From Patescibacteria group bacterium (GTDB lineage Bacteria; Patescibacteriota; Patescibacteriia; 2-01-FULL-39-33): DNA of 64,000 nucleotides. A program made the position numbers and the translations under genes. Location of the stretch: positions 38,734 to 102,733 of the forward strand of contig JBAZMW010000005.1 of the NCBI GenBank assembly GCA_041649575.1, read 5' to 3'. A model generated the notes under the pieces. The model worked only from the letters and a program-made list of their open reading frames with translations, was not told the DNA's origin and made no database searches. Within the stretch, counting starts at the first letter, position 1. The number at the start of each line of letters is the position of its first letter. This document shows, piece after piece, positions 11,552 to 39,247 of the stretch.

Positions 11552-11620
11552 GCTAGTGCTCCTTAGTTGCGGGAACGATTTGCGTGTTCCCTGACAGTCA
11601 ATTGATCCAGTTCATCCGGT

Positions 11621-16603: not shown

Positions 16604-16607
16604 CGCG

Positions 16608-17384: not shown

Positions 17385-17446
17385 GTTGTGTCTCCCGATG
17401 TGGTTGAGCCGGGCAAGCAACCAAAGGTTGCCGCCCGGCTTGTTTC

Positions 17447-19894
17447 TCATTTCTTTTCTCGCCCTACCACGCAGAGTGGCAGAGCGGCCAGCATGGCCAC
17501 CATGGCGCCGAAGCCGCAAGCGATTAGCATGGCAATCATCACCCATCCCAGCCGTGCGACCGGAATGAAATTTGATGCCGTAAGAGGCAAGAAACAAAAG
17601 CAGTTCAGCGTAATGTCAACCAAAACCGCTCGTCCCTTGTCTCTCATACTGCCTCGCAGCGCTTCAAGTCGGCCTGTGGTCTGGATGATCGGTTGATACG
17701 CAGCTACCAAGTACAAGCCGAAGTCCATGGCCGCGTTTATCGCCATGGCGGTAACGCAGGCAGTGGCTTGGTCTAGCGGTATTCTTAGTACCATCATTAA
17801 TACAGCGATGACCGCAGTAGCGAAGATAAACGGCACGTTCATGACCAGTCCGGTGCGCCAGCTGCTAAGGCACGTCGTACCTCCTCTTATTCCGCGGTTG
17901 CGCCAGAAGATCCAGAGCCCGCAGATAATAGCGACAATCCATTGCGAAGTCAGCAGGTTTAGCGGCTTGCCTTCACGGATGTATTTGTCGTTACGAGGAT
18001 AGATCGGTACTTTGCCAAACGGCAAGATTTGCAGTCCGGGAAATTGCTCTCCCAGTTCTCTTATCTCGTCGCAGAGCTGGCCCAGGACATTGGAGTCTTC
18101 CATGGCTGTAGAGGCAAAGATCACGACCCCTTGGTCGAACCACAGTTGTTGCTGCACTGGTGGTCCTACGTCCCAGGAGATGATCTCCCAGATGTCGTGA
18201 GCTTGCTGAGTGGTTGTTGGCCACTTTACGCCATATGACTCTCGCGATACCACGCCGACCGTGTCTAGAGCGGATTTGACTTCTCGGACATTGGCCAGCC
18301 TGGCGATCGCGTTTTGGAACTCGACCGCTTTTTGGATGAAGGCGGGGTCGTCCACCGTTGTCGCTCTTGAGGGCATAACCAGGACTGACACGCGGTCGAA
18401 ACCGTACCTGTCGTTCTCGTTGAGGAATTTGCTGGCGCGATATACTATCGTGCCAGGGATATATTCCAAGGGTCTGGTCCGGACTTCTATGAAGTCAAAG
18501 TCCTTGCTAACCCCAGGGATATAATCCAAACTGATCATGCCGATCGTGGCAACAACCAGCGCCCCAACCAGAGACAGTGACAGCCAGCCAATCTTTCGGT
18601 AGGCAAAGCGCCCTTTCTTGTTTCGGCCGATGACAGCGGTGATCAGACGGACGATGCCACAGAGGAATCTGTCCCAGATCGCCGCCGCCCAGGCTATACG
18701 ACTCAGACTGTTTTTCACAGATACCGCTTCGCCACCCACCAACGAGTGGAGGGCTGGCAAAAACAGTAGTGATAACAGGATGAGATACGCGATGCCGAGA
18801 CTGGCGAAAATCCCTACCTCCATAATTCCTCTGACGCCGATCTGGTAGAGGGTCAGGAAGTTGAGGATGGCAATCAGCGCTGTCACGCCTATCACGCCAT
18901 TGATGGATCGGGATCGGCGCCAGACAGCAGCCATCGTGGCCTGGTTGTCGGCTAGTCGGTTTTCGTTGTAGGCACAGAACTTGTGCACTGCGAACGAAAT
19001 GCCGGCTACGATGATGGCGGTGTCAACCAGCAGGAAATACACCCGTTCGTAAACAGGCAGTCCTGCTATTTGTGCCAGCCCGATTGATCCCCGCGCCCAG
19101 ATAAAGCAGATCAAAACCACGAGAGTGGCAATCACTGCCTGTCTTAGCGATCTTAGAGACACCCAGGCGATGAGGCAGACAAGACCCAGTCCGATCGTAG
19201 ACAGCCTCATGACGTCGGCTGTAAGCGAAGAGAAGATCAGGCCTCGGCCAATCACCCAGCCAGCCGGCATGACTCTTTCGAATCTGCCTGTCGGCTTAAT
19301 GTCTGACTTGAAAAACCACTCCCATTCGGGGATCTCCCTCTGCTCCAGCATATTCGCCACGTTTCGAAACGTCTTCATCTCCTCGTAGCCGACCGGTAGC
19401 AGCAGGATTATTTGGGAGTAATCAAATTCTTTCCCAATCAGCAGGCCGTATACCCCGGAATCCCGGCGAACATCAGCTTTCCATCTTTCGATGTCAAACC
19501 GAGGATCGTCCAGGAGTTTCTGGGATATGTAGGGGTCACTGGAGAGAGCGTCACCAGTGTCTTGGTAGTGGGCCGCTTTGGACAAACTCAGAATTCCAAA
19601 ACCCGGAAAGCTTTTTTCCAGCGTTTCCGTGAACCAAGAGACGTACTCCATGTCTTCTTTGGTGATGGCTTTTGGAAACTGAACTACGAAAGAAATGGCA
19701 TCTCCGGTTTTCAGGCCTTGAGAAGCCAGTCCTTTCACTCGTTCATCTAGGAGGCGGTAGGGGTCTTGCTTGTTAAGCAGGGCGTCGTCGAGATCTCCCG
19801 CTTTTTTGACGTAGAGATTGCCATACAACATCGGTACGGTCAATACCAATACGGCGATCACTACAACCAGAGCAAAACGCTTGTCGTGCTTCAT
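17447..19894 (-). CDS. MMPL/RND-superfamily exporter
   Basis: 815 aa. Two blocks of about 6 TM helices each follow large extracytoplasmic loops, typical of MMPL/RND (HpnN-like) architecture. RBS GGGAGGA. Confidence 0.75.
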   Translation of the reverse strand: MKHDKRFALVVVIAVLVLTVPMLYGNLYVKKAGDLDDALLNKQDPYRLLDERVKGLASQGLKTGDAISFVVQFPKAITKEDMEYVSWFTETLEKSFPGFGILSLSKAAHYQDTGDALSSDPYISQKLLDDPRFDIERWKADVRRDSGVYGLLIGKEFDYSQIILLLPVGYEEMKTFRNVANMLEQREIPEWEWFFKSDIKPTGRFERVMPAGWVIGRGLIFSSLTADVMRLSTIGLGLVCLIAWVSLRSLRQAVIATLVVLICFIWARGSIGLAQIAGLPVYERVYFLLVDTAIIVAGISFAVHKFCAYNENRLADNQATMAAVWRRSRSINGVIGVTALIAILNFLTLYQIGVRGIMEVGIFASLGIAYLILLSLLFLPALHSLVGGEAVSVKNSLSRIAWAAAIWDRFLCGIVRLITAVIGRNKKGRFAYRKIGWLSLSLVGALVVATIGMISLDYIPGVSKDFDFIEVRTRPLEYIPGTIVYRASKFLNENDRYGFDRVSVLVMPSRATTVDDPAFIQKAVEFQNAIARLANVREVKSALDTVGVVSRESYGVKWPTTTQQAHDIWEIISWDVGPPVQQQLWFDQGVVIFASTAMEDSNVLGQLCDEIRELGEQFPGLQILPFGKVPIYPRNDKYIREGKPLNLLTSQWIVAIICGLWIFWRNRGIRGGTTCLSSWRTGLVMNVPFIFATAVIAVLMMVLRIPLDQATACVTAMAINAAMDFGLYLVAAYQPIIQTTGRLEALRGSMRDKGRAVLVDITLNCFCFLPLTASNFIPVARLGWVMIAMLIACGFGAMVAMLAALPLCVVGREKK

Positions 19895-24964: not shown

Positions 24965-25087
24965 AATTCAGCTCAGCCTTCAAAGGTTGGGCTGAATTGT
25001 TTTTGTTTGACACTGATATGGCCGGGTGATAAGATAATCTCGGTTCCTTCAACAGCCGTAATGATACGGCAGAAAGAGAGGTGCATC

Positions 25088-26188
25088 ATGGGAACTGCAG
25101 TGTCTACGTCGCCAACGCCGACTTCCACCGAGACGGCGGAAGAAAGCGTCCCCGACCACCATTCGGAAAGTGAGGTGGCAGGAGAATTGACGAGGCTGTA
25201 CGCTTTCACCTGGGATTTGGGAGAGAAAATGCAGTGTTTCTCCGCGCTCGGGCTGAACGTACCTCCCGCCAACGCCAAGATCTACACCGAGACGGTAAAC
25301 GACGTGATCAACGAGCTCAACCGCGTTCTCAAACCGACGCAAGCCAGAGTGGAGGCCAGGTCGACGCAGGATTTGGCCAGGGCAATCGTGTCCAGGGCCT
25401 TGCGTCATCAATCGGATCTCAGGTCGCGTGCTATGCGAGAATCGTTTGTCGTCAGCACCTGTCCGGAGATCGCCAATATCCGCCAGGGCGTTTCCTTGCA
25501 GATCAATCGTCTCATCGATGAGAACGGTCGGGTGATTGGCCTGGGTCCGCGTCCGGGTACTGAGCCAATCGAGGACCAAATGGAGGCCATCGCACACGCT
25601 TCGGGTGGGCATCCGGTGATACTCATGGAGGATGGAGCGTTCACCGGCGGCACGATGCGTTTTGTGATCGAGAAGATGCGCGAGTATCGTCTCCAGGTGA
25701 TCGCTGTGGTCATCGGCATGGCCTTTCCTACGGCCAAAGAGAAGATCGCCGAGGTCTTCGACGGTGAGATTATCTGCGAGGAGGAGAAAGACTGGCTGGA
25801 CTGGATGCCCGACCACGACTTCTTCCCCTTCGTGCCCAACAGCGGCCGAGTATTCGGCGTTTCTTGGCGAGGCAATCTGGGCCCGCTCTACACTCGCGAG
25901 GGTATCAGTCTGAGCGCGCCATACATCCAACCCTTCGCTCCGTCGAGCAAGTGGGCGAGTATCCCGGAGGCGAGCTTCCTGGAATTCTCGCGTTTCTGTC
26001 TGGACAAGACGTTGCGGATTTTCCAGGATCTCTGCCACCGCAACGGCGATCGCCAGCTCACTATCGGTGACATCATCGACACAAAACCGCGCGTCAGCGT
26101 TCCGATGGGCATGGGCCAGAAGCGCTTTCCGTCTCCGAGTACGCGGATTCTCGATTACCTCAAAGACTGCATCGAGGAGATCGACTGA
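25088..26188 (+). CDS. Phosphoribosyltransferase (type I PRT fold)-domain protein, function unknown
   Basis: PRPP-binding-like motif VILMEDGAFTGGTMR. GC-rich. Start chosen at MGTAVS (RBS AGAGAGG); the track ORF begins at 25007. The fully overlapping minus-strand ORF is rejected. Confidence 0.45.
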   Translation: MGTAVSTSPTPTSTETAEESVPDHHSESEVAGELTRLYAFTWDLGEKMQCFSALGLNVPPANAKIYTETVNDVINELNRVLKPTQARVEARSTQDLARAIVSRALRHQSDLRSRAMRESFVVSTCPEIANIRQGVSLQINRLIDENGRVIGLGPRPGTEPIEDQMEAIAHASGGHPVILMEDGAFTGGTMRFVIEKMREYRLQVIAVVIGMAFPTAKEKIAEVFDGEIICEEEKDWLDWMPDHDFFPFVPNSGRVFGVSWRGNLGPLYTREGISLSAPYIQPFAPSSKWASIPEASFLEFSRFCLDKTLRIFQDLCHRNGDRQLTIGDIIDTKPRVSVPMGMGQKRFPSPSTRILDYLKDCIEEID

Positions 26189-28120: not shown

Positions 28121-28460
28121 GGTGTCTCTCCTTGGTTGTCACGAGCCGGGCTCGATGATCGCTTCTAAAAAGATGGGGTACAAAAAACCCCTTTCTCTAT
28201 CCGAGAAAGGGATTATCTCAAAGCCAATTCTAACTTATGGAATTAGCTTCGCAATAATCCCTTTTTTGTGATGATGTCTTAAAATTGTTTTAGGACTCCC
28301 GATCATATTAATCAAATTATAGATGGAATTTATTAAAAAGTCAAATAAAAATTACAGTTGACAGAAAAAATTTTTAATGGTAGTTTATAAATACCTTTTT
28401 AATTAAGGCAGGAAAACAGGCTTGCCGACGGCAAGAACTATAAGGAAAGGATCCGATACC

Positions 28461-29849
28461 ATGTCAAACAAAACCGTAAAGCCAGAAATTCTGGGTGGCT
28501 TCCGCGATATGCTACCCAGGGACGCATTGATGTTGCAGGAGATAGTCGACATTGTCAGAAGGGTGTATGAATCCTTTGGCTTCTTGCCGCTGGAGACGCC
28601 CTGTATGGAACGGCAAGAGGTGCTGACGGGCGGCGATCCGCATTTCAACAAAACCATCTTCATTGCCCGCACTTTGCGCGGCACGGAAGACAGGGGCGTT
28701 GAGGAGAGCTGGGACAACGACTTCGCGCTGAGGTTTGATCTGACTGTGTCTCTGGCTCGGGTGGTGGCTGCCTATCCCGACTTGCTCAAGCCGTTCAAGC
28801 GCTACCAGTTGGGCAAGGTGTGGCGCGGCGAGAGCCAGCAGTCGGGGCGTTTTCGTGAGTTCTTTCAGTTGGACTTTGACACCATCGGTTCGCGTTCGCT
28901 CAACGCCGACATCGAGACCATCCAGGTGATTTACGAGTGCCTCAAGGAGCTCGGCATCGCCAACTTCACTATTCGGTTCAACACCCGTAAGGTTCTCAAC
29001 GGGTTGGCCCAGGTGGTGCAAGTGGGTGATCGGGCCAGGAATTTCTTCCGCATTCTCGACAAGCTGGACAGGATCGGCGCCGACGGAGTGAAGGCCGATT
29101 TGATGCGTCAGCCGGACAACGAGTTCGACGAATCGGCCGTGGCCTTGAGTGAGTCGGAAGCGGACAAGGTTCTGGGTTTTTTGTCCATCAAGGATGAACG
29201 ACCCGAGGACACCTTGGCACGGCTGGAGGAGTTTTTTGCCGGTGCTCAAGGCGATGGTCAGGAAGGTCTGGCCGAACTGCGGGGCATTGTCGAGGCGCTT
29301 GATCTCTTGGGCATTCCTCGCGCCAACTGGAAGCTGGATTTGTCGGTAGCCCGTGGCCTGGACTACTACACCGGGCCGGTGTTTGAGACGATACTCAATG
29401 ACTATCCGGAGCTCGGTTCGGTGGTCGGCGGCGGGCGTTTCGATGGCCTGACCAACCGTTTCATCCCGGACAGCAATATTGCGGGCGTGGGTGCCTCGGT
29501 CGGCGTGGACCGGCTGATCGTGGGTATGCAGAAACTCGGTCTGCTCAAGGCCAAGGACTCTCTGACTCAGGTGCTGGTCACCATCTTCGATCCCAAGTAC
29601 GAGCGCGAGTCAAGGGCGATGGCGGCCTACTTGAGACGTTTCGGAGTACGAACCGAGCTCTACCTGGGCGAGGATCGCACACTGCGGGCGCAGTTCGCTT
29701 ACGCCACCAAGAAGGGCATCCCGTTCGTCGTGGTTCTGGGCGAAGAGGAAATCGAGGCCGATAAGGTAGCCTTGAAGGATATGGCCAGTCGCAGCCAGGA
29801 GCTCTTGACAAGAGAGGAGGTTCTTGCTAAGCTGGCAAGAGCAGAATAA
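28461..29849 (+). CDS. hisS: Histidine--tRNA ligase (class II aaRS)
   Basis: Start at MSNKTVKPE (RBS AAGGAAAGG). ILGGFRDMLP N-terminal motif, GGGRFDGL (HisRS GGGRYDGL motif), C-terminal anticodon-binding domain. The tRNA-His gene follows. Confidence 0.85.
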   Translation: MSNKTVKPEILGGFRDMLPRDALMLQEIVDIVRRVYESFGFLPLETPCMERQEVLTGGDPHFNKTIFIARTLRGTEDRGVEESWDNDFALRFDLTVSLARVVAAYPDLLKPFKRYQLGKVWRGESQQSGRFREFFQLDFDTIGSRSLNADIETIQVIYECLKELGIANFTIRFNTRKVLNGLAQVVQVGDRARNFFRILDKLDRIGADGVKADLMRQPDNEFDESAVALSESEADKVLGFLSIKDERPEDTLARLEEFFAGAQGDGQEGLAELRGIVEALDLLGIPRANWKLDLSVARGLDYYTGPVFETILNDYPELGSVVGGGRFDGLTNRFIPDSNIAGVGASVGVDRLIVGMQKLGLLKAKDSLTQVLVTIFDPKYERESRAMAAYLRRFGVRTELYLGEDRTLRAQFAYATKKGIPFVVVLGEEEIEADKVALKDMASRSQELLTREEVLAKLARAE

Positions 29850-30046: not shown

Positions 30047-31801
30047 TTATTTTTTTTCTTTGATTTCCATTTCTATCTCTTCGATAAACTGGGCCACTTT
30101 TTTGCTACCTAGGTCGCCCTCACCACGTTTTCTAATAGCCACGGCGGCGGCGGATTCTTCTTTCTCTCCAACCACTAAAATGTAAGGCACCTTTTCTTTC
30201 TCCGCGTTTCTGATTCTTTTGCCCAGACTCTCGTCGCTGTTGTCCAATTCGACGCGGACATTTTTTTTGAATAATTGGTCTCTAACTTTTTGGCCATAAT
30301 TGTTGAATTTTTCGGAGACGGGGATAATAACTGCTTGCACCGGAGCCAGCCAGGTCGGGAAAGCTCCTGCATAGCGTTCGATCAAAAAGGCCATGGTGCG
30401 CTCCAGGCAGCCGATAGAAGAACGGTGGATGACGATGGGCCGCTCATTTTTCCCTTCTTTGTTGGTGAAAGTTAGGTCGAAGCGTTCCGGCATAACAAAG
30501 TCATATTGGACAGTAAAGGCAGTTTCTTCTTTGCCGCCGGTTCTTTTCATTTGGATATCGATTTTCGGGCCATAGAAAGCGGCTTCGTTGGCGGCCTCAT
30601 AGAACGGAGCCTTAACTTCTATCAGAACCTCGCGCAAAACATTTTCGGCAAAATCCCAGGCATCGTCGTCTTTATAATATTTTTTGGTGTCCGAACGGTC
30701 GCCCAGAGACAGACGATAGCGATAGTCCACGCCCTTTTCCAGGCCCAGCGTCCCATTGATAAAATCAATAAGGTCGAGAACTTCCTTGATGACTTGTTTG
30801 GCCTGGTCTTTGGCAGCGATGATGTGGGCGTCGGCCAAGCAAAACATGCGGACACGGGTCAGACCGGACAATTCGCCGCTTTTCTCGTAGCGATATTGAT
30901 GAGCGATTTCGCCGATGCGGTAAGGCAGCTCGCGGTAGCTGTGCTTTTCGGATTTATAAAACATGAAATGATGCGGGCAGGTCATGGGCTTGAGGATCAA
31001 TTCTTCCTCATCGATTTTCATCACCGGATACATGGTGTCTTTGTAGTAAGGATAGTGGCCGGATTTTTTGTAGAGATCGACTTTGGCCAAATCGGGAGTG
31101 ACCACATGGTGATAACCGCGTTTTAATTCTTCGTCTATAGTAAAGCGCTCAAGCTCTCTTTTGATGGTGGCGCCTTTGGGGCCGAAAGTCGGCAGGCCTT
31201 TGCCAACAAGCTCGGAAAAGACGAAGAGCTTTAAATCTTGGCCGATAACTCGGTGGTCTCTTTTTTTGGCTTCTTCTTGCAGTTTTAAATATTCGTCCAA
31301 TTCTTTTTGGGTGGCAAAAGCAGCGCCATAAATCCGCTGGAGCATTTTATTTTTCTCATTGCCTCGCCAATAAGCGCCAGCGACAGATAATAGCTTGAAA
31401 ATCTTAACTTCGCCGGTGGACTTCAAATGGGGACCACGGCACATATTGGAGAAGTCGCCTTGCTCATAGAAACCAACTTCTTTCTCATCCGCTTGTTTCA
31501 GTTCTTTAGCCAACTCCGCAGTGTAGGTGTATTTTTTGCTTTTTAGAAGTTTGATCGCCTCATCAATCGGCAACAGCTTTTTTTCAATTTTTAAATCTTC
31601 TTTGACAATTTTTTTCATTTCAGCCTCGATGTCGGCCAGGTCGTCTTCGGTCACTTGATTTTGGGCTTCAAAATCATGATAAAAGCCGTTTTCAATGGCC
31701 GGGCCGACACCGGGAACGGCGCCATAAAGTCGTTCAAGCGCCTGCATCATGATGTGTGCCGCGCTGTGATTGAGGATTTCTTGCTGGTCTTGGTTATTCA
31801 T
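30047..31801 (-). CDS. thrS: Threonine--tRNA ligase
   Basis: HSAAHIM editing-domain motif, class II catalytic core, C-terminal anticodon-binding domain. 584 aa with no TGS domain. Confidence 0.9.
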   Translation of the reverse strand: MNNQDQQEILNHSAAHIMMQALERLYGAVPGVGPAIENGFYHDFEAQNQVTEDDLADIEAEMKKIVKEDLKIEKKLLPIDEAIKLLKSKKYTYTAELAKELKQADEKEVGFYEQGDFSNMCRGPHLKSTGEVKIFKLLSVAGAYWRGNEKNKMLQRIYGAAFATQKELDEYLKLQEEAKKRDHRVIGQDLKLFVFSELVGKGLPTFGPKGATIKRELERFTIDEELKRGYHHVVTPDLAKVDLYKKSGHYPYYKDTMYPVMKIDEEELILKPMTCPHHFMFYKSEKHSYRELPYRIGEIAHQYRYEKSGELSGLTRVRMFCLADAHIIAAKDQAKQVIKEVLDLIDFINGTLGLEKGVDYRYRLSLGDRSDTKKYYKDDDAWDFAENVLREVLIEVKAPFYEAANEAAFYGPKIDIQMKRTGGKEETAFTVQYDFVMPERFDLTFTNKEGKNERPIVIHRSSIGCLERTMAFLIERYAGAFPTWLAPVQAVIIPVSEKFNNYGQKVRDQLFKKNVRVELDNSDESLGKRIRNAEKEKVPYILVVGEKEESAAAVAIRKRGEGDLGSKKVAQFIEEIEMEIKEKK

Positions 31802-31944
31802 ATATTTTGTATTAATTTTAGAGTTTTTTTATGAATTGGTCAAATATTATAATTGTCAGAAAAGAAAAGCCTTGTTAAGATAATTATTGCTCGTTACGGA
31901 GCGCACTCTGCACGCTTGAGTCGAGTATGGCAGCGTCTACTCTG

Positions 31945-31990
31945 GCAGCGCGCACCAAGGGATGGGGTTTTCGATGAGAGAATCCCATCA
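31945..31990 (+). repeat. Boundary copy of the GC-hairpin repeat family, followed by a T-run
   Basis: CCAAGGGATGGGG..TCCCATC plus ATTATTTTTG. Preceded by a GGAGCGCACTCTGCACGC-type motif like the array units. Confidence 0.5.
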
Positions 31991-32037
31991 TTATTTTTGT
32001 TTAAATTTAGATATTTAAAAATTTTTAATTTTTAGTA

Positions 32038-32066
32038 TTGACAAAAATATTAATATATGTTAGGAT
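32038..32066 (+). promoter_or_regulatory. Putative promoter of the 226-aa orphan gene, with a ~130-nt leader
   Basis: TTGACA, 17 nt, TAGGAT. The leader contains the palindrome ATGACGCGTCGTCAT. The RBS GGTAGGAG precedes the ATG at 32196. Confidence 0.3.
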
Positions 32067-32195
32067 ATGGGGTCAATGACGCGTCGTCATCTGACGGGAC
32101 AGGCAACTGTGTTGTCCTGGCCAAAGCGAGGGCGGTTTGAGTCATTGAGGCTTAAATCGCAAGTGAGTATTTCAACAAGGTAGGAGTAACTAGTC

Positions 32196-32876
32196 ATGGC
32201 GAAAGTCAAGCCGGAAGTCGAGCCGGAAGTCAAGTCGGGAGAATCGAAATCGAAGGTAGTGAGAGTGAAAGTGGAGGGGGTTTACCCAATCCTCATGAAT
32301 CCCATGACCGAGGCCACGCTCGACAGCTTGATCACGGGCAATCGCCTGCCGCCGACCAAGGATTTGGCGTTCGAGGAGGTCGCGAGCAGGAAGATTTACC
32401 GTGAAGGCGGCGAGCCCGATGGCGCTATCGGTATTCCCGTGGAGAATCTGTGCTCCTGTCTGGTGCGGGCGGGACGCGAAGTCAAGAATGGCAAGAAGCA
32501 GATCAGCACGGCGGAAAGCACCACGCTGTTCTCATTTCTCTCCATTCGCGGCGAGTTCCTGCCGTTCACCAACGATCTGACCCGGCACGGCGACGGCAAG
32601 GGTTGGGTTGTCGACAAACGTCGCGGTTGCCTGCACGACAAGGGCAAATCCACGGCGGTCGGCATCCTGCGGCCGAAATTCCCCGTCTGGGCATTCGAGT
32701 TCGTCATGGACCTCGACTTGACCGAGATCGACGAGGGCGTCGTGCGGAAGCTTGTCGAGGTCGCGGGCAAGAAAGTCGGCCTGGGCGATTTCCGGCCCAC
32801 CTGCAAGGGGCCGTTCGGTCGGTTCCAGGTCGTGAGCTGGGAAGAGGCCAAGAAAGAAGTTCCGGCCGCGGCCTAG
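32196..32876 (+). CDS. Hypothetical protein (226 aa), first gene of the hairpin-array island
   Basis: GC-rich ORF with a good RBS and no motif recognised by me. Immediately followed by the hairpin repeat array. Confidence 0.55.
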   Translation: MAKVKPEVEPEVKSGESKSKVVRVKVEGVYPILMNPMTEATLDSLITGNRLPPTKDLAFEEVASRKIYREGGEPDGAIGIPVENLCSCLVRAGREVKNGKKQISTAESTTLFSFLSIRGEFLPFTNDLTRHGDGKGWVVDKRRGCLHDKGKSTAVGILRPKFPVWAFEFVMDLDLTEIDEGVVRKLVEVAGKKVGLGDFRPTCKGPFGRFQVVSWEEAKKEVPAAA

Positions 32877-32949
32877 CTCCGGTGTACATCATGTAACACG
32901 GCTACCCTGTCACGTGGGGTTTTCCAACCTCGTGCCAGGCACGCCGCAC

Positions 32950-34990
32950 CATGGGGCGGGAGAGCAGCAATGTTCTCCCGCCAGCACTTATACATTATTA
33001 TCAATGCGTGCCGATGCCACCAAAGGCACGGCTTGGTCCGGTGGCGTCCGCTGCTGCAATGAGCTGCATGGGGTGGGAGTTCGCAAGAATTCCCGCCAAC
33101 TAATCAATGCGTGTTATAATGAAAATAATAAATATTGATTAGTACATTCTTCTGCGTGTGGTGTTGTTTCGCTCGGTTGCGTAGAGCGTCGCATCGCATG
33201 GTCGACCTCACCACGGGGCGAGGGTTCATCGCAATCCTCGCCGACTAATCAGTGATTATTACGGTTTAATAATTAGTGATCAGTTCTTTTTCACAGTCCT
33301 TGGTGCGGCTAAGCTCCGCTCCGCGCAGTCCGCTCTGCTGTTGTTTGCCAGGGGGCGGGAGAGCAGAGATGTTCTCCCGCCAGAGTGTATCACCCATTTT
33401 CCCAACTGGCCAAGGCGTGGCCCGGCGGTGTGGGCAATGGTTCGGCTCGGGGCGGGAGTCCATCGCGACTCCCGCCAGCTAATCAATGGTTGTTAAAAAA
33501 TTTAGTAATTATTGATTAGTTCGTTTATAAATCATGATGTGGCTGGCCGTCGCATGTCTTAGTTGCGTATCGTGTAGCCGCGCTTTCCCTGGGGCGAGGA
33601 TTGAAATACATCCTCGCCAGCTAATCAATGTCCATTAATTAATTAGTGGTTATTGATTAGTACCTTTTCACTTTGACTCAGCTAGCCGCCGTAGCGCGGA
33701 GTAAGCTGCAGTGGGGCTCACCCCAGCTATGTTGAGCTCGCCATGGGGCGGGGATGGGAAACTGTCTCCGCCAAAACTACTATCACCGTGTCGTTGGGTC
33801 GGCTTCGGCTACCTTTGATCCGGCGAACCGGCGCAGAGCGTGGGGCGGGGATTGTAACAAATCCCCGCCAACTAATCAGTGTGTATTATGCAAATAGTAA
33901 ATATCGATTAGCTCTTTCTGGTCCTAGCATTCTTGGCCGCCGTGGTGTGAGGCACTGCAAGACGGAGCGGAGCTGCGCACGGGGCGGGAGGTAGCAATAC
34001 TCTCCCGCCAATATCTACCAAACACTTCTCAATGGCAGGGCTTTCCGGCGCGTAGTTCAGCCCCGCCAGGCGAAGCGTTCTGTTGCAAGGGGCGGGGGTT
34101 CAGTGATGTTCTCCCGCCGTACCTTTTGCTTTTTAGGCCGCCCAGAGCAGTCAGCGGTAGAGCCTGGTCCTCTGTGGCAGTCCATGGGCGGGAGTCCTCA
34201 CCCGGCTCCCGCAACTATTTATTGGCGTTTGTTCCTCGGCGGAGCTACGCAGCCTGCCGCATAGTTCGGCCAGGTGTAGCGACGCACTCCCTGGGGCGGA
34301 GGTCGGTAGTCATGATCTCCGCCGACTAATCAGTGTTCATAATAATTTGTGATTAATGATTAGTTCATTTGTTAGACGGTTATGCTCAGGCGCAGTTCCG
34401 CGGAGCAGAGTATAGCTCGGCAGACACCGGCGTACTTGTCCATGGGGCGGAGACGGGAAACTGTTTCCGCCGAGCGATCAACCAGCTTCGGCTGTCAGAA
34501 AAGGATAATCGGTATGACTGGTGGTATGGGCATGCACAAACATGGCACGAGCGGTCATGTGCATAATGACCAGCATTTCACTGGCAAGAAGGGCGGCAAG
34601 CGTGCTGAGCGGAAAGGAAAGACGCACAAACAGCGTCGCCTGAACCGCGGGACGCACAAGAACAGGTTCAAGGAAGACTAGCTGACATTAGGCCATGGTG
34701 CCGCGGAGCAAACATCTCTCCGGCATTGCGGGCTGTGGCGCGGGGCGGAAATCGGCAACGGTTTCCGCCATTAATCAATGTTTATTAAGAATTTAGTAAT
34801 TATTGATTAGTTTTAGTTCTTTCGGCAAAGCTGAGTAAAGCTGCCTGTTGTCCGCCGACGCACGGGGCGGGAGTTCGCAAGAATTCCCGCCAAGCACATC
34901 TCATCTTTGGCGGCATCGTTGGGCGCAGTATGGCTCGGCATGCTTTGCCAGAGTGCGGCGCGGAACGGAGATCGGTAACGGTCTCCGTTA
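32950..34990 (+). repeat. Array of 16 compound hairpin repeat units (GC stem-loop GGCGGGAG-N9-14-CTCCCGCC, 7 of them followed by an AT-rich hairpin with CTAATCAATG/CATTGATTAG arms)
   Basis: GC hairpins start near 32953, 33070, 33215, 33352, 33449, 33591, 33745, 33842, 33981, 34089, 34186, 34294, 34444, 34742, 34864 and 34964. All are in the same orientation, preceded by CCAWGG/CACGG. Loops vary. Stems show compensatory changes. No ORF over 2.2 kb except a 55-aa candidate. Confidence 0.8.
34514..34681 (+). CDS. Candidate small basic His-rich protein (55 aa) inside the repeat array
   Basis: MTGGMGMHKHGTSGHVHNDQHFTGKKGGKRAERKGKTHKQRRLNRGTHKNRFKED. SD-like AAGGA upstream. Occupies the one long (about 300 nt) gap between hairpins. 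Confidence 0.3.
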   Translation: MTGGMGMHKHGTSGHVHNDQHFTGKKGGKRAERKGKTHKQRRLNRGTHKNRFKED

Positions 34991-35013
34991 TTATATTTTT
35001 AATAAATTTATTG

Positions 35014-35042
35014 TTGACAATTTTAATATTTTTTGTTAATAT
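35014..35042 (+). promoter_or_regulatory. Near-consensus sigma70 promoter upstream of the helicase gene
   Basis: TTGACA (35014-35019), a 17-nt AT-rich spacer, TAATAT (35037-35042). The leader carries a 9-bp hairpin CAGGCCAAA/TTTGGCCTG. Confidence 0.5.
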
Positions 35043-35150
35043 ATGGTGTCAGGCCAAAATCAATAACAAGCAGTTCTTTGACACTTTGGCCTGTGAGAAT
35101 ATAGGAAATTGAAGAAGCGAAGTAAAACCAGGCGAGAAGGAAGACAAATC

Positions 35151-36938
35151 ATGAAACATCCGAAACATCTGGACCTTTGGAGTTGTTTCCCGCATGACTG
35201 TTATCCAAATATCTTGGATAATCAGAGGGACGCTCTCCGGGTCATCGAGCAGGAAGGCGGTTGCGCTCTATTGCAACTGCCGACCGGCTCAGGCAAGACA
35301 GCAGTGGGGTACGCTTTTCTCAAGGCCGTCTTGAAGAGGGCTGAGGGGCCGGTGTACTATGTCGTTCCCACCAAGACGCTGGTGGAGCAGGTCAGAAGGC
35401 TCCACCCCGACGTCAAGATCATATTTGGTCGAAACGAATACTCATGTCTGTTCTACCCCGATCAGGAGCTGAAGGCCGACGAAGTGCCTTGCTCGATGCT
35501 GCACGATTGCCCGCATCGCGTGGACCAGGAAACTGGCCAGACCGCTGTGCCCGGCGTCAAGCCCTGTCCTTATTTGCAGAAGAAGTGGGAGGCGAGCCAA
35601 GGCGGTATCGTGGTTTGCACTACGGCGTTCTTTCTCTTCACCCACTTGTTCGCCAGCGAAGACGCCAAGCCGGCAGCGCTGGTGATCGACGAAGCCCATG
35701 GCATTGCTCATACGGTTCGCGGTTGTCTCTCCTACGAGATTACCGACTACCATCTTGGGCGGGCGGTGGAGCTACTACGGCCAGTGGACAACGAACAGGC
35801 CGAGCGACTTGACGCTTTCTTGCGGACGATGGTTCGTATCATCAAGAAGAAGGCGTCTGGCGAGCGGCAGATCATCGAGGATGAGGAGGTCGCCAAGCTG
35901 CTGGATAAGCTCAAGCAGATCAACATCACGCGACTGGGAGAAAAGGTGCGCCAGGCGATTAGGCAGGGAGTAATCGACGCCAAAGCGGAACGCGAAACCC
36001 TGCGTCGGCTGGAGATTGTCTTACGCGACTTGTCGCATTATGCCCGATCGCTCGAATACTCCCGGCCTAACGAGAAGCGTAACGCCCTCAACTACACCTA
36101 TGCGTTTTGGAGCCAGGAGCGCGCCGAAGGCGAGCGGGTGAAGTACCGTCTGTTCATCAAGTGCTACTATGTGGCGCCGCTCATACGGCGGATGTTGCCG
36201 GAGATGACTGTGGCTTACTCGGCGACCATCGGCGATCCCGAAGTGTTCGGTTTCGAGACTGGCATTGAGGCGCCGTTTCACAGCTTCGGTTCGGACTTCC
36301 CGGTTGGCAAAACGCAGATTTTTGTGCCGACCGATACGCCGAATTTGGCCGTCAACGTTCGTGGTCGTCAGGATCGCACCAGGGCGCTAAGGAGGATCGC
36401 CAAGGCCTGCCGCCGTTTTGCCGATCAAGGCAGGCGGTCGCTGGTGGTGGTGATCTCCAACGAGGAACGCGCTAAGTTCCTGACGCTCGCCGGCGAGGAA
36501 GGCGTCGCAGCCGTCAGCTACGGTAATGGCGTCAAGCCAAAAGACGCGGCCCTGAAGTTCAAGGAGGGTGAGGGTGATGTCTTGGTTGGCACAGCGGCCA
36601 ATTACGGAGAGGGCTTTGACTTACCCAAGGGCATCGCTCCGGTCATCTTCTTTCTCCGGCCAGGATTTCCGCATCCGCACGATCCGGCGACAGTGTTTGA
36701 GGAGAGGCGATTCGGCGGCATGCGTTGGCGGATCTGGAATTGGCGTGTGATGATGGAGGCCTTGCAGGTGCGGGGTCGCAACATCAGAAGCGCCGAGGAT
36801 GTGGGCGTCTGCTTCTTCATTTCCCAGCAGTTCCGGCGGTTCGTTTTCGCCGCCCTGCCCGACTGGTTGCAGCCGGCGTATTGTGGCGATAAGGACTGGG
36901 AGGAGTGCCTTGAAGAGGCGGAGCGATTGCTTTCCTAG
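35151..36938 (+). CDS. XPD/Rad3/DinG-family Fe-S DNA helicase (superfamily 2, DEAH)
   Basis: Walker A LQLPTGSGKT, motif Ia YYVVPTKTL, four Cys between Ia and II (C-SCLF..PCSM..DCPH..KPCPY) as in the XPD/DinG Fe-S domain, motif II LVIDEAHG, motif VI QVRGRNIRSAEDVGV. Start at ATG 35151 (RBS GAAGGAAG); the track start at 35109 is TTG. Confidence 0.8.
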   Translation: MKHPKHLDLWSCFPHDCYPNILDNQRDALRVIEQEGGCALLQLPTGSGKTAVGYAFLKAVLKRAEGPVYYVVPTKTLVEQVRRLHPDVKIIFGRNEYSCLFYPDQELKADEVPCSMLHDCPHRVDQETGQTAVPGVKPCPYLQKKWEASQGGIVVCTTAFFLFTHLFASEDAKPAALVIDEAHGIAHTVRGCLSYEITDYHLGRAVELLRPVDNEQAERLDAFLRTMVRIIKKKASGERQIIEDEEVAKLLDKLKQINITRLGEKVRQAIRQGVIDAKAERETLRRLEIVLRDLSHYARSLEYSRPNEKRNALNYTYAFWSQERAEGERVKYRLFIKCYYVAPLIRRMLPEMTVAYSATIGDPEVFGFETGIEAPFHSFGSDFPVGKTQIFVPTDTPNLAVNVRGRQDRTRALRRIAKACRRFADQGRRSLVVVISNEERAKFLTLAGEEGVAAVSYGNGVKPKDAALKFKEGEGDVLVGTAANYGEGFDLPKGIAPVIFFLRPGFPHPHDPATVFEERRFGGMRWRIWNWRVMMEALQVRGRNIRSAEDVGVCFFISQQFRRFVFAALPDWLQPAYCGDKDWEECLEEAERLLS

Positions 36939-36989
36939 TATCACGGACTGGCTCGCCATGGCTGCGCCTTGCTTGCCACTGCCTGCCGT

Positions 36990-37486
36990 CGTCCGCCAAG
37001 GGGCGGAGATCTGGTCCATCCGGGTCTCCGCCACATTCTTTGTTTTCAAACGTCGCTCGGCAACGTTGGGTCTTCAATGGCTTACCGCTGTTGCGCGTCG
37101 CAAGGGGCGAGGATGGTCTTTGACTAATTCTCGCCATTCTACACTTGTCAAAGAGATTCTTTGGCAGATGTGGTCTTTATGAGGTAGCGTATTCTTCAGT
37201 TGAGCTCAGTCTAGCTCGGTACAGCTGAGCGCCGCAGCCATTTCCAAGGGGCGGGGGTTGGGCTTGCCCAAATCTCCGCCAACGCTTATCTTCTCGGCAA
37301 TGCTTGGCACAGTATCCCAGTGTTGTGCGTCGCTGAGTTAGCCAAGGGATGGGACTGGTCAAACGGTCTCATCAAGATTATTTTTCTGGGCACGTCTCAG
37401 TATTCAATGGCCCGCTGCTGTTGAGTAGTGCAGAGCCCCCAGTCCAAGGGGCGGGAATCCATCGTGGTTCCCGTCGATTTTTTTTA
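36990..37486 (+). repeat. Second block of the GC-hairpin repeat family (5 copies) downstream of the helicase, ending in a T-run
   Basis: Copies near 37000, 37105, 37248, 37342 (variant GATGGGAC/GTCTCATC) and 37448. All are preceded by CCAAGGGG. The last is followed by TTTTTTTT. Confidence 0.7.
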
Positions 37487-37540
37487 TTTAAAATTAATTG
37501 CTAAATTCTAGGTTTTAAGCTAAAATATTCGTAAATCCCC

Positions 37541-39247
37541 ATGTCTTACACCATAGAAAAAATCAAAAAGCAAATTATCGAACAGGTCTCTGGCGCCGTA
37601 GGCCAGAAAATCGATAAAAGCCAGCTGGAAGTGACGGTGCCGCCGGACGCCTCTTTAGGCGATTTGGCCGTGCCCTGTTTTTATCTGACCAAACTGCTGC
37701 GGCGTTCGCCCAACCAGATTGCCGACGAGCTGCAGGCCAGAATCCGTCCGACAGGACTGATCAAGTCGGTGCAAAATGTCGGGCCTTATTTGAATTTTTT
37801 TGTCAGTAGCGGAGTTTTTGGCAAGGAGGTTTTAAAAGAAATAGCCAGATTAAAAGATAAATACGGCCGCGGCAAATTAGGCGAAGAAAAAGTAATGATT
37901 GAGTTTTCCCAGCCCAATACCCACAAAGAATTTCATATCGGCCACGTGCGTAATGCGGTTTTGGGTGATAGTTTGGTGAAGCTTAATAAGTTCGCCGGAC
38001 GCAAAGTGGTGGCGGTCAATTATATTGGCGATATCGGCGCTCATGTGGCCAAGTGTTTGTGGGCGCTTAAAAAATTTCACCAGCAGGAAGAACCGCCAAA
38101 GAATAAAGGCAAATTTTTAGGTCAGATTTATACCGAAGCGGTGAGAAAAATAGAAAGCAATCCCCAGTTCAAGCGAGAGGCCGATGAGGTTTTGCAAAAA
38201 TTGGAGCGAGGCGACAAAAAGATGCTGGCTTTGTGGCAGAAAACCAGGAAGTGGAGTTTGGTGGAGTTTGAGGCGATTTACAAAACGCTGGGCATCAAGT
38301 TTGATCAAATTTTTTATGAGAGCGAGGTGGAGCAGCCGGGCAAAAAGATCGTTGAGAAGCTGCTAAAAGACGGCTTGGCCGAAAAATCGGAAGGTGCCGT
38401 AATTATCAATTTGGAAAAATACAATTTAAAAAATTTTTTACTGCTCAAATCCGACGGCTCATCGCTTTATTCCACCAAAGACCTGGCCTTGGCCGAGCTC
38501 AAATTCAAAAAATTCAAAATTGACAAAAGCGTGGTGGTAGTCGACAGCCGACAAACTTTTTATTTGCAGCAACTATTCAAAACCCTGGAAGTCATCGGCT
38601 TCAAAAAAAAGATGGAACATATCGCTTACGAGTTCGTCACCTTAAAGGATGGCGCCATGTCTTCGAGAGCGGGCAACGTGGTGTTGTTTGAAGATTTTTT
38701 TGAAGAAATGAAAGCTCTGGCCAAAAACGAAACCAAGAAAAGGCACGAGAATTGGCCGGCCAAAAAAATCAGCCAAGTGGCCCGACAGCTGACTTTATCG
38801 GCTGTTAAATTCAATATGCTGAAAATCAGCAACAGCAGCATCATTGTTTTTGACAAAAATGAAGCTTTGAGTTTTGAGGGCTTTACCGGCCCTTACCTGC
38901 AATACACTTTAAGCCGCATTGCCAGTTTGCTAAAAAAGAGCCAGACCGTTGTCGCCGCCAACATTGATTACAGTAAATTAAACAGTGACTTGGAAAAAGA
39001 AATTATTTTGAAGCTGGCGGAGCTGCCGGAGGTTATTAAGCGGGCGACAGCAACCAGCGAACCCAGCGAACTGGCCAAGTATTTATTTGATTTGTCCAGG
39101 CTGTTTTCTAATTTTTATCAGAGTTTGTCGATTTTGACCGCCGAAGAAAAAACCAAAAAAGCGCGATTGACGCTAGTGGTGGCGGTCAGGCAGGTTTTGG
39201 TTAACGGTTTGAATCTGTTGGGCCTGGAAGCACTGGAGCAAATGTAG
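37541..39247 (+). CDS. argS: Arginine--tRNA ligase
   Basis: HIGH motif HIGHVRNAVLGD, class I core, DALR anticodon-binding C-terminus ending in ..EQM. 568 aa. Confidence 0.9.
   Translation: MSYTIEKIKKQIIEQVSGAVGQKIDKSQLEVTVPPDASLGDLAVPCFYLTKLLRRSPNQIADELQARIRPTGLIKSVQNVGPYLNFFVSSGVFGKEVLKEIARLKDKYGRGKLGEEKVMIEFSQPNTHKEFHIGHVRNAVLGDSLVKLNKFAGRKVVAVNYIGDIGAHVAKCLWALKKFHQQEEPPKNKGKFLGQIYTEAVRKIESNPQFKREADEVLQKLERGDKKMLALWQKTRKWSLVEFEAIYKTLGIKFDQIFYESEVEQPGKKIVEKLLKDGLAEKSEGAVIINLEKYNLKNFLLLKSDGSSLYSTKDLALAELKFKKFKIDKSVVVVDSRQTFYLQQLFKTLEVIGFKKKMEHIAYEFVTLKDGAMSSRAGNVVLFEDFFEEMKALAKNETKKRHENWPAKKISQVARQLTLSAVKFNMLKISNSSIIVFDKNEALSFEGFTGPYLQYTLSRIASLLKKSQTVVAANIDYSKLNSDLEKEIILKLAELPEVIKRATATSEPSELAKYLFDLSRLFSNFYQSLSILTAEEKTKKARLTLVVAVRQVLVNGLNLLGLEALEQM

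What the first reader, a model, noticed from the sequence alone, without database searches (positions are those of the whole stretch)
32950..34990. Compensatory base changes in the hairpin stems imply selection on secondary structure
The core stem GGCGGGAG/CTCCCGCC recurs with paired substitutions. Examples: GGCGGGGAT/ATCCCCGCC (33842), GGCGAGG/CCTCGCC (33215, 33591, 37105), GGCGGAAATC/GGTTTCCGCC (34742), GGCGGAGATC/GGTCTCCGCC (37000), AACGGAGATC/GGTCTCCGTT (34964), GATGGGAC/GTCTCATC (37348). Several mismatches are G-T wobbles. Loops of 9-14 nt are unrelated between copies. Structure is conserved while sequence drifts, which is the signature of a functional RNA or ssDNA hairpin rather than of a protein-binding dsDNA site.
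Basis: seen in the sequence. Interest (0 to 1): 0.7.

Follow-up and report, generated by a model that had tools for sequence, protein, structure and literature searches.

The report
VIPR guide-RNA array hairpin tails

Summary
There are 21 G+C-rich hairpins on the + strand (32955-34989 and 37002-37475), plus a 22nd at 31961-31989. They keep 97.6% of stem cells paired. Nine of the 10 stem pairs show changes on both sides (0 of 500 shuffles reach this). G.U cells outnumber A.C cells 37 to 2, and 10 of 21 loops are GNRA tetraloops. This points to an RNA structure read from the + strand.

Every hairpin is preceded, exactly in phase, by about 12 pentamers of the form YNNNG. The adjacent 226-aa gene is a homologue of the SUSP1 Vipr protein (profile E 2.9e-10) with a Cas7-like fold. 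An XPD/DinG-family helicase gene separates the two arrays. This matches VIPR systems as described in bioRxiv 10.64898/2026.04.26.720920: a Vipr RAMP protein plus vrRNAs made of pentamer repeats and a structured 3' tail.

The same layout (vipr, array, helicase, array) recurs in 23 other Patescibacteria loci, whose tail stems have quite different sequences. No targets were found and no expression data exist.

Verdict: a new member of a known kind. It has variant details: YNNNG/S repeats, a plain hairpin tail instead of a pseudoknot, and extra AU-rich hairpins between some units.

The parts
31853..31881 (+). promoter-like site (TTGTCA-17-TAAGAT) for the solo upstream vrRNA u00
31901..31989 (+). 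vrRNA u00: pentamer tract 31901-31960 plus tail hairpin 31961-31989 (GATGGGG.../...CCCATC), followed by a T-run
32038..32066 (+). promoter-like site (TTGACA-17-TAGGAT) upstream of vipr
32067..32195 (+). vipr 5' leader, 78% identical to that of locus L154
32196..32876 (+). vipr gene (226 aa), a Cas7-like RAMP and homologue of SUSP1 Vipr
32895..32982 (+). vrRNA u01 (tail 32955-32982, GCAA loop)
33012..33097 (+). vrRNA u02 (tail 33072-33097, GCAA loop)
33100..33142 (+). AU-rich long hairpin after u02
33157..33242 (+). vrRNA u03 (tail 33217-33242)
33245..33283 (+). AU-rich long hairpin after u03 (diverged copy)
33294..33381 (+). vrRNA u04 (tail 33354-33381, GAGA loop)
33391..33476 (+). vrRNA u05 (tail 33451-33476), follows u04 with no AU-rich hairpin between
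33479..33519 (+). AU-rich long hairpin after u05
33533..33618 (+). vrRNA u06 (tail 33593-33618)
33621..33660 (+). AU-rich long hairpin after u06
33687..33772 (+). vrRNA u07 (tail 33747-33772, GAAA loop)
33784..33869 (+). vrRNA u08 (tail 33844-33869)
33872..33911 (+). AU-rich long hairpin after u08
33923..34009 (+). vrRNA u09 (tail 33983-34009, GCAA loop)
34031..34118 (+). vrRNA u10 (tail 34091-34118, GUGA loop)
34128..34212 (+). vrRNA u11 (tail 34188-34212); the outermost G-C pair is deleted on both arms
34235..34323 (+). vrRNA u12 (tail 34295-34323)
34326..34363 (+). AU-rich long hairpin after u12
34386..34471 (+). vrRNA u13 (tail 34446-34471, GAAA loop)
34514..34681 (+). small basic ORF (55 aa) inside the array, partly conserved in L154
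   Evidence: no other homologue
34684..34769 (+). vrRNA u14 (tail 34744-34769, GCAA loop)
34771..34810 (+). AU-rich long hairpin after u14
34806..34891 (+). vrRNA u15 (tail 34866-34891, GCAA loop); only about 9 well-formed pentamers, so the nominal 12-pentamer start overlaps the end of the AU-rich hairpin
34904..34989 (+). vrRNA u16 (tail 34964-34989, AACGG.../...CCGTT, GUAA loop), followed by a T-rich run; likely terminator of the first operon
35014..35042 (+). promoter-like site (TTGACA-17-TAATAT) upstream of the helicase gene
35151..36938 (+). accessory gene: XPD/DinG-family SF2 helicase (595 aa from the ATG at 35151; the longest ORF starts at TTG 35109)
36942..37032 (+). vrRNA u17 (tail 37002-37032)
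37046..37135 (+). vrRNA u18 (tail 37106-37135)
37190..37280 (+). vrRNA u19 (tail 37250-37280)
37288..37373 (+). vrRNA u20 (tail 37348-37373, GATGGGAC/GTCTCATC)
37390..37475 (+). unit u21: degenerate pentamer tract, tail 37450-37475 followed by T8; likely terminator of the second operon

Best explanation
The locus 31850-37480 is a VIPR (Viral Interference Programmable Repeat) system carried on a G+C-rich island of a Patescibacteria chromosome. It encodes a Vipr RAMP protein (32196-32876), an XPD/DinG-family helicase as accessory protein (35151-36938) and 22 guide RNAs (vrRNAs). Each vrRNA is about 86-91 nt: about 12 pentamers YNNNG/S followed directly, in phase, by a 9-13 bp hairpin.

The hairpins in the finding are the vrRNA 3' tails.

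Inferred from the SUSP1 and P. fulva systems (homology only, nothing here is measured):
- One Vipr protomer binds each pentamer. It sequesters the conserved Y and G and presents the variable bases.
- The filament reads double-stranded DNA through a gapped code in which two guide bases pair and one target base is skipped.
- The 3' tail caps the filament and fixes its register.

My own inferences:
- The tail protects the 3' end.
- The tail doubles as an intrinsic terminator where a U-run follows (u00, u16, u21).
- Only the bottom 4 bp (GGCG/CGCC), the preceding GG and a 3' purine are held in sequence. The upper stem only has to pair.
- VIPR arrays have no Cas1/Cas2-type machinery that recopies a repeat, so units diverge independently and compensatory substitutions accumulate. 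That is why the stems covary.
- The helicase probably acts on the bound target after recognition, as Cas3 or type IV DinG do.
For: Shown here:
1. Hairpins are real, + strand only and confined to the locus.
2. Covariation is strong. G.U 37 against A.C 2. 10 of 21 loops are GNRA.
3. The 12 pentamers before every hairpin are in phase with it: 162 of 252 are Y...G in register 0, against 10-43 in the other registers and 39 +/- 5 in the island's coding DNA. Position 1 is Y in 90% and position 5 is G/C in 92%, while positions 2-4 have about 1.9-2.0 bits of entropy.
4. The arrays show no 3-nt coding periodicity.
5. A profile of the 226-aa protein family hits PDB 36pp 'SUSP1 Vipr protein' at E 2.9e-10 over 152 residues. 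The AF2 model has pLDDT 88, and its best folds are Cas7/Csm3 RAMPs, E about 5e-6. The residues aligned with SUSP1 R138 and R179, which contact G2 and Y3, are invariant in 39 homologues.
6. 23 related loci, nearly all labelled as Patescibacteria-group MAGs, carry vipr plus the same helicase, and most of them show pentamer+hairpin arrays.
7. Pentamer tracts found without reference to any hairpin are followed by much more stable 40-mers than random positions: -14.1 against -6.2 kcal/mol, p 1e-31.
8. The closest relative, L154, has the same tail family.

From the literature: VIPR is a Vipr RAMP plus vrRNAs of 9-16 YNNGG repeats (variants include YNNNG) capped by a structured 3' tail. Helicase or nuclease accessory genes occur in types III-V, and 25.5% of systems are chromosomal. 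In the cryo-EM structures 12 protomers sit on 12 repeats with the 3' structure as a cap.
Against: - There are no expression or binding data for this locus.
- No convincing DNA target was found under the published rule or four alternatives.
- Single-sequence similarity to SUSP1 Vipr is weak (E 0.0085).
- The fold library predates the Vipr structures, so the fold match is to Cas7/Csm3 only, at TM 0.4-0.5.
- The repeats depart from YNNGG: position 4 is G in only 41%, and position 5 is C in 23%.
- The tail is a plain hairpin, not the pseudoknot of the SUSP1 clade.
- Only three consensus promoters lie on the + strand within the locus (a fourth, at 37498, sits just downstream of u21, before argS). 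Most vrRNAs would therefore need processing by an enzyme I could not identify.
- Unit u21 has a poor pentamer tract.
Confidence: 0.88

Rival explanations
1. The hairpins are simply Rho-independent terminators of many small independent transcription units. Their stems covary because any stable G+C-rich hairpin terminates transcription, with no role as a handle for a protein.
For: In related loci most tails are followed by A + T-runs and a TTGAC box. In the window u00, u16 and u21 have T-runs, and the scan lists 6 tails as terminator-like.
Against: - Most of the 22 tails in the window lack a U-tract; they are followed by AACTAATCA..., AGCAC... and similar.
- Terminators would not need to sit exactly in phase with the pentamers, nor keep GG + GGCG at the base.
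- The number of terminator-like sites is not above the shuffle expectation: 10 against 7.4 +/- 2.9.
- This reading is compatible with a second, added role at the operon ends.
Confidence: 0.05
2. A degenerate or atypical CRISPR array of a type IV-like system (Cas7-like protein plus DinG helicase). The hairpins would be diverged repeats and the 65-110 nt intervals would be spacers.
For: - Cas7-like fold.
- The helicase's best PADLOC model is typeIV_DinG, E 1.8e-38, full length.
- Hairpin repeats at the 3' end of each unit resemble Cas6-type crRNA handles.
Against: - The repeats are not identical; the mean column identity of the hairpin alignment is 59%.
- The 'spacers' are built of in-phase pentamers, which CRISPR spacers are not.
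- There is no cas1, cas2, cas6, csf1 or csf3 between thrS and argS.
- The NCBIfam Csf4 model scores 19.5 bits against a cut-off of 400.
- The protein family matches Vipr, not Csf2.
Confidence: 0.03
3. Selfish or DNA-level palindromic repeats: REP/BIME-like elements, MITEs, or attC-like single-stranded DNA recombination sites that fold during replication or conjugation.
For: Clustered imperfect palindromes whose structure is conserved more than their sequence are also typical of REP and attC sites.
Against: - There are no copies elsewhere in 64 kb.
- There is no RAYT transposase or integron integrase nearby.
- Orientation is strictly on one strand, with G.U 37 against A.C 2 and GNRA loops.
- The hairpins are tightly coupled to pentamer tracts and to a RAMP gene across 23 genomes.
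Confidence: 0.02

Closest known systems
VIPR systems (Vipr + vrRNA), bioRxiv 10.64898/2026.04.26.720920 and 10.64898/2026.04.26.720927. The characterised examples are type II, from Escherichia phage SUSP1 and a Pseudomonas fulva prophage.
   Same: - A minimal locus with a small RAMP protein homologous to SUSP1 Vipr.
- An accessory (vap) gene.
- Arrays of about 90-100 nt RNAs flanking the genes, one upstream and the rest downstream.
- Each RNA is about 12 pentamer repeats with a conserved pyrimidine and G and variable bases between.
- A structured 3' tail with covariation.
   Different: - Repeats are YNNNG/S, not YNNGG.
- The tail is a simple, often GNRA-capped hairpin whose upper stem varies freely, not a pseudoknot.
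- The accessory gene is an XPD/DinG-type helicase. By elimination from the preprint's text this is probably its type IV, but I could not verify that.
- The locus is chromosomal in Patescibacteria, between aminoacyl-tRNA synthetase genes, not in a phage.
- There are 22 units.
- AU-rich 17-20 bp hairpins follow 7 of the units.
Class 1 CRISPR crRNAs with Cas6-type 3' hairpin handles, and type IV-A systems (Csf2/Cas7 + Csf4/DinG)
   Same: - A Cas7-like RAMP that presumably polymerises on a guide.
- The guide ends in a hairpin of which only the base is sequence-constrained.
- A DinG-family helicase partner.
   Different: - No adaptation module, Cas6, Cas5 or large subunit.
- The repeats are not identical.
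- The guide is periodic (5 nt) and, by homology, reads DNA discontinuously.
- The Csf4 equivalog threshold is not met.
Intrinsic (Rho-independent) terminators
   Same: A G+C-rich stem-loop. Three of the tails (u00, u16, u21) are followed by T-runs at operon ends.
   Different: Most tails have no U-tract. They are phase-locked to the pentamers and share a conserved stem base.
Integron attC sites and REP elements
   Same: Structure is conserved while sequence drifts.
   Different: - Those act as DNA, are linked to an integrase or RAYT gene, and flank cassettes or are dispersed.
- Here the signals are RNA-like (G.U pairs, GNRA loops) and are tied to a RAMP gene.

Membership tests
VIPR system | A Vipr protein: a small single-RRM RAMP homologous to the SUSP1 / P. 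fulva Vipr | tested here: met
   The family profile hits PDB 36pp SUSP1 Vipr at E 2.9e-10; the single sequence gives E 0.0085. The AF2 model (pLDDT 88) is closest to Cas7/Csm3. The G-loop motif GDFRP..GPFGRF aligns with GDWRP..FGRF.
VIPR system | vrRNA tract: at least 4 tandem pentamers YNNGG or an accepted variant (NNNGG, YNNNG, NNNNG) | tested here: met
   About 12 in-phase YNNNG/S pentamers lie before each of 21 hairpins: 162 of 252 are Y...G in register 0, against 10-43 in the other registers.
VIPR system | A structurally conserved 3' tail directly after the repeat tract | tested here: met
   There is a hairpin at offset 0 in all units. Covariation is shown. The shape differs from the SUSP1 pseudoknot.
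VIPR system | A minimal locus: vipr plus a vap gene, long non-coding flanks, no CRISPR array or adaptation genes | tested here: met
   Only vipr, a helicase and a 55-aa ORF lie between thrS and argS. The helicase is linked to vipr in 23 loci. No tandem identical repeats were found.
VIPR system | vrRNAs are expressed as roughly 100-nt RNAs and co-purify with Vipr | not testable with these tools
   This needs small-RNA sequencing and a pull-down.
VIPR system | The guides' variable dinucleotides match natural DNA targets under the 1-nt skip rule | tested here: inconclusive
   - No match above shuffled guides in the window plus 70 loci, under five rules.
- Seven exact scans of viral contigs gave one hit: the u20 guide in L155. 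It is consistent with chance and the skipped base falls on codon position 1.
- One metagenome scan gave 3 chance-level hits.
CRISPR array | Near-identical direct repeats separated by unique spacers of fixed length, with cas1/cas2 nearby | tested here: not met
   The hairpin alignment has a mean column identity of 59%. Spacing is 97-154 nt (298 across the small ORF) (coordinates). No cas genes were found.
Type IV CRISPR DinG (Csf4) | The protein reaches the curated Csf4 equivalog threshold | tested here: not met
   NCBIfam TIGR03117 scores 19.5 bits against a cut-off of 400. One PADLOC typeIV_DinG model does match at 1.8e-38. The closest solved structures are archaeal XPD, at 1.4e-10.
Rfam families (including hammerhead ribozymes reported in some VIPR arrays) | A match to any covariance model | tested here: not met
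   No match in 31800-37520 even at E <= 1. The only match in the whole window is tRNA-His.
Intrinsic terminator | A G+C-rich hairpin immediately followed by a U-tract | tested here: not met
   Clear T-runs follow only u00, u16 and u21. The total of terminator-like sites is not above shuffles.

The most novel reading that the evidence does not exclude
The helicase-linked Patescibacteria clade may be a mechanistically distinct VIPR subtype, with four differences:

1. Its guides use a relaxed YNNNS pentamer, in which position 4 is nearly free and so might add specificity or change the gapped code.
2. Its tail is recognised by shape plus a 4-bp base rather than as a pseudoknot.
3. Long arrays transcribed from few promoters are cut at interspersed 17-20 bp AU-rich hairpins by a host double-strand RNase such as RNase III, instead of by ribozymes.
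4. An XPD/DinG helicase turns binding into interference.

This would make it a chromosomal intermediate between phage VIPR and type IV-like CRISPR effectors.
Probability: 0.2. Interest if true: 0.65.

Novelty: new member of a known kind. Interest (0 to 1): 0.45.

Why it matters
VIPR was described only in 2026, and its characterised examples come from a coliphage and a Pseudomonas prophage.

This locus shows the same design in a Patescibacteria chromosome, with one of the largest arrays seen among the loci I examined and a helicase partner. Because 22 paralogous guides sit side by side, the array gives a natural mutational scan of the tail:
- The stem base and the phase with the pentamers are fixed.
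- The upper stem needs only pairing.
- The loops favour GNRA.

That is directly usable for designing minimal vrRNA scaffolds and for annotating such arrays, which Rfam does not yet cover. It also shows why covarying hairpin arrays differ from CRISPR arrays: there is no repeat-copying adaptation step.

It does not change the current picture of the field.

Tried and rejected
- **Rfam.** No family matched at the gathering threshold over the whole window, or at E <= 1 over the locus.
- **Pfam, NCBIfam and PADLOC for the 226-aa protein.** No hit. Only phrog_4652, of unknown function, matched.
- **Global period-5 Fourier signal over the arrays.** Not significant, because the register restarts at each unit. 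The phase-anchored count is the valid test.
- **My first tract-calling rule.** It stopped after two pentamers lacking a terminal G and under-called units whose 3'-proximal pentamers end in C.
- **MAFFT on the raw hairpins.** It put gaps into the 3' arm. I replaced it with ungapped arm alignments and a natural equal-length subset.
- **Target searches.**
  - Five pairing rules against the window and 70 loci gave nothing above shuffled guides.
  - Seven exact scans of viral contigs and one of metagenomes gave no credible target.
- **The AU-rich elements as sigma-70 promoters.** None passes the consensus scan, and by eye I found no consistent -35/-10 pair.
- **The small ORF as a known family.** No homologue in the large protein search.
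- **Assigning the preprint's type number or checking whether this locus is in its dataset.** The supplementary tables are not held.
Full report
**1. The observation**

The stretch 32950-34990 is non-coding and lies in a G+C-rich island (about 55% against about 43% in the flanks). The island sits between thrS (30047-31801, minus strand) and argS (37541-39247).

A motif search finds the 5' arm GGGGCGG, with at most one mismatch and followed by a complementary arm, only at 32953-34990 and 37000-37480, always on the + strand. Folding gives 21 hairpins with 9-13 bp stems, 4-8 nt loops and -14 to -25 kcal/mol.

On an ungapped alignment of the outer 10 bp of each arm (A2):
- 97.6% of 209 cells are standard pairs (shuffled 83.0 +/- 1.6).
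- 9 of 10 pairs carry changes on both sides (41 cells).
- 19 cells changed on one side only and still form a standard pair (mostly G.U wobble); 5 cells are unpaired.
- No shuffle out of 500 reaches any observed measure, and sliding the 3' partner by 1-3 columns drops pairing to 38-58%.

RNAalifold on the 12 natural copies of equal length finds the same helix, with 9 of 10 pairs compensated. Unit u11 has lost the outermost G and its partner C together.

In the stems of the window plus locus L154 there are 37 G.U cells against 2 A.C cells. Ten of 21 loops are GNRA tetraloops: GCAA, GAAA, GUAA, GAGA, GUGA. So the structure is selected on the + strand and looks like RNA.

**2. What precedes the hairpins**

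I wrote the 90 nt upstream of every hairpin in blocks of five, counted back from the first stem base. This shows a pentamer repeat in phase with the stem.

Over the 12 pentamers before each of 21 hairpins:
- Position 1 is C/T in 90%.
- Position 5 is G in 69% and C in 23%.
- Positions 2, 3 and 4 are close to random (1.97, 1.96 and 1.91 bits; position 4 is G in 41%).
- 162 of 252 pentamers are Y...G in this register, against 10-43 in the other four registers and 39 +/- 5 at random places in the island's coding DNA.
- The signal falls away beyond pentamer 12-13.
- The last pentamer is always C-N-N-G-G, so its GG together with the first two stem Gs produces the conserved GGGG.
- The arrays lack the 3-nt periodicity of the neighbouring genes.

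A detector that asks only for an 8-bp hairpin preceded by at least 6 of 10 Y...G pentamers recovers 19 of the 21 units. It also finds one more upstream of the first gene, at 31961-31989. That unit has its own TTGTCA-17-TAAGAT promoter and a T-run.

**3. The genes**

*The 226-aa protein (32196-32876).* It has no Pfam, NCBIfam or PADLOC hit. It does match the PDB chain 36pp_D, 'SUSP1 Vipr protein': E 0.0085 as a single sequence and E 2.9e-10 over residues 39-190 with a profile of 39 homologues. Its AlphaFold model (pLDDT 88.3) is most similar to Cas7-family RAMPs of type VII and type III CRISPR systems (E about 5e-6, TM 0.4-0.5). That fold library predates the Vipr structures. The residues aligned with SUSP1 R138 and R179, which contact the second G and the pyrimidine of each repeat, are invariant in the family. 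The D177 equivalent is D in 33 and S in 6 of 39.

*The 595-aa protein (35151-36938).* It is an SF2 helicase of the XPD/Rad3/DinG family, with DEAD_2 and Helicase_C_2 domains. Its closest solved structures are archaeal XPD. Four cysteines lie in the stretch SCLF...VPCS...HDCP...KPCP near the N-terminus (read). One PADLOC 'typeIV_DinG' model matches it end to end (1.8e-38), but the curated Csf4 model does not (19.5 bits against 400).

**4. Identification**

Two 2026 preprints describe VIPR systems:
- A minimal locus holds a Vipr RAMP gene and one accessory (vap) gene.
- It is flanked by roughly 100-nt vrRNAs made of 9-16 YNNGG repeats (variants NNNGG, YNNNG, NNNNG) and a structurally conserved 3' tail, which is a pseudoknot in the SUSP1 clade.
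- One Vipr protomer binds each repeat. The variable dinucleotides pair with double-stranded DNA while every third target base is skipped. The 3' structure caps a 12-protomer filament.
- Seven types exist. Types III-V carry nucleases or helicases, and a quarter of the systems are chromosomal.

The window's locus fits on every feature I could test (see the membership table). The hairpins of the finding are therefore vrRNA 3' tails.

The preprint says types III and V are the only ones with nucleases. The helicase type is thus probably its type IV. This is an inference; the type tables are not available, and the text names neither DinG nor Patescibacteria.

**5. Relatives**

The Vipr family has 189 homologues in the protein search. 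There are 70 loci in representative genomes and 174 in viral contigs, the latter at 37% identity or less.

In 23 loci, nearly all labelled as Patescibacteria-group MAGs, the same helicase lies 1-2.5 kb from vipr. Most of them show pentamer+hairpin units after vipr and again after the helicase, up to 19 per locus.

Tail stems differ between loci: AGCGGGAGTCA, GGTAAGTGG, GTCAG...GAAA, GACAGG, GGCAAGG. Within a locus they share a base.

Tracts detected by the pentamer criterion alone (104 tracts) are followed by 40-mers folding at -14.1 kcal/mol on average, against -6.2 for random positions (p 1e-31).

The closest relative (L154, Vipr 63% identical) has 15 tails of the same GGGGCGGGA family, including a C-G to A-U swap at pair 3. 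Window and L154 together give 97.9% pairing and 7 of 8 pairs compensated.

**6. How it probably works**

*Shown here:* the anatomy, the covariation, the homology and the synteny.

*Inferred from the SUSP1 work:* Vipr polymerises on the 12 pentamers, the tail caps the filament at its 3' end, and the complex reads DNA by the gapped code.

*My inferences:*
- The strict zero offset between the last pentamer and the stem suggests the tail sets the register.
- The invariant base (GG + GGCG/CGCC + a 3' purine) is the likely identity element for the cognate Vipr.
- The upper stem and loop are a generic stable cap that also protects the 3' end.
- At u00, u16 and u21 the tail plus T-run ends transcription.
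- Consensus promoters on the + strand stand only before u00, vipr and the helicase gene (plus one before argS, outside the locus). Units u01-u16 and u17-u21 are therefore probably made from two long transcripts and cut out afterwards.
- Stems covary here, unlike CRISPR repeats, because nothing recopies a master repeat.

**7. Targets**

None found.
- The guides' dinucleotides, tested under five spacing rules, match nothing in the window or in 70 loci better than order-shuffled guides do.
- Exact scans of viral contigs with 10 dinucleotides from seven guides gave a single hit, for u20 in L155.
- That contig is 30% G+C and its ORFs look to me like those of a eukaryotic giant virus. The skipped base falls on codon position 1 rather than the wobble position. 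I roughly estimate, assuming a collection of about 1e11 bases, that around one chance hit is expected over the seven scans.
- A metagenome scan with 9 dinucleotides of u12 gave three hits that do not extend.

**8. Verdict**

The object is a member of a class published a few months before the date of the databases used here, so it is not a new kind.

Its variant features are:
- YNNNG/S repeats.
- A hairpin tail rather than a pseudoknot.
- An XPD/DinG helicase partner.
- A Patescibacteria chromosomal setting.
- AU-rich hairpins between blocks of units.

These are of moderate interest to people working on VIPR and on CRISPR origins.

Noticed in passing
window 33100-33142, 33245-33283, 33479-33519, 33621-33660, 33872-33911, 34326-34363, 34771-34810; L154 1626-1667, 1858-1900, 2787-2831: A second, AU-rich hairpin of 17-20 bp (CUAAUCARUG...AUUGAUUAG) starts 2 nt after the tails of 7 of the 22 units and is followed by a U-rich run. 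It occurs only in the window and its closest relative. Evidence for structure: RNA fold z-scores of -5.4 to -7; 91.8% of cells paired; 4 pairs with double changes; G.U at two columns in 7-8 of 10 copies. The copies cut the first array into blocks of 1-4 vrRNAs. They could be double-strand RNase (RNase III-type) processing sites or weak terminators. No consensus promoter was found in them.
   Followed up: partly
window 34514-34681: A 55-aa lysine/arginine/histidine-rich ORF with a Shine-Dalgarno-like AAGGA lies inside the array, between u13 and u14. Its N-terminal 19 residues are 63% identical to an ORF at the same kind of position in L154, 3074 onward. It has no homologue in the 70 related loci or in the large protein search. 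It may be a small nucleic-acid-binding accessory protein.
   Followed up: partly
window 32067-32195 (L154 648-784): The 130-nt leader between the vipr promoter and the start codon is 78% identical to that of L154. It includes an invariant block GTTGTCCTGGCCAAAGCRAGGGCGGT that contains a GGGCGG resembling the tail's 5' arm. It might be a regulatory RNA or an autoregulatory site.
   Followed up: no
window pentamers 2 and 3 upstream of each tail, e.g. 34285-34294, 37338-37347: In the two or three pentamers nearest the tail, position 5 is C about as often as G, but always G or C (21 of 21). The same is visible in related loci. In SUSP1, changing the corresponding G abolishes function (legend of fig. 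S12), so this clade tolerates or uses something different there.
   Followed up: no
L155 7140-7171: All 11 well-formed pentamers of guide u20 match this IMG/VR contig under the published two-pair, one-skip rule. I judged it a chance match: the contig is 30% G+C, its ORFs look to me like those of a eukaryotic giant virus, the skipped base falls on codon position 1, and I roughly estimate about one chance hit over the seven scans, assuming a collection of about 1e11 bases.
   Followed up: yes
window 10670-12952, 15395-19894, 25007-26188, 28422-29849: Several other patches of 51-59% G+C lie in a genome of about 43%: two ORFs without any Pfam hit (10670-12952), a LolA-like plus MMPL-like pair (16608-19894), an ORF without a hit (25007-26188), and the hisS gene next to tRNA-His. 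This suggests repeated horizontal acquisition.
   Followed up: partly
window 63357-63753: A 216-nt tandem repeat, 1.8 copies, 83% matches, at the edge of the window.
   Followed up: no
L003, L020, L021, L024: In some related loci the vrRNA arrays and the helicase gene lie on the strand opposite to vipr. Nearly all tails in L003, L020 and L021 carry GAAA tetraloops on a GUCAG... base. This suggests sub-clades in which tail and Vipr co-vary.
   Followed up: no
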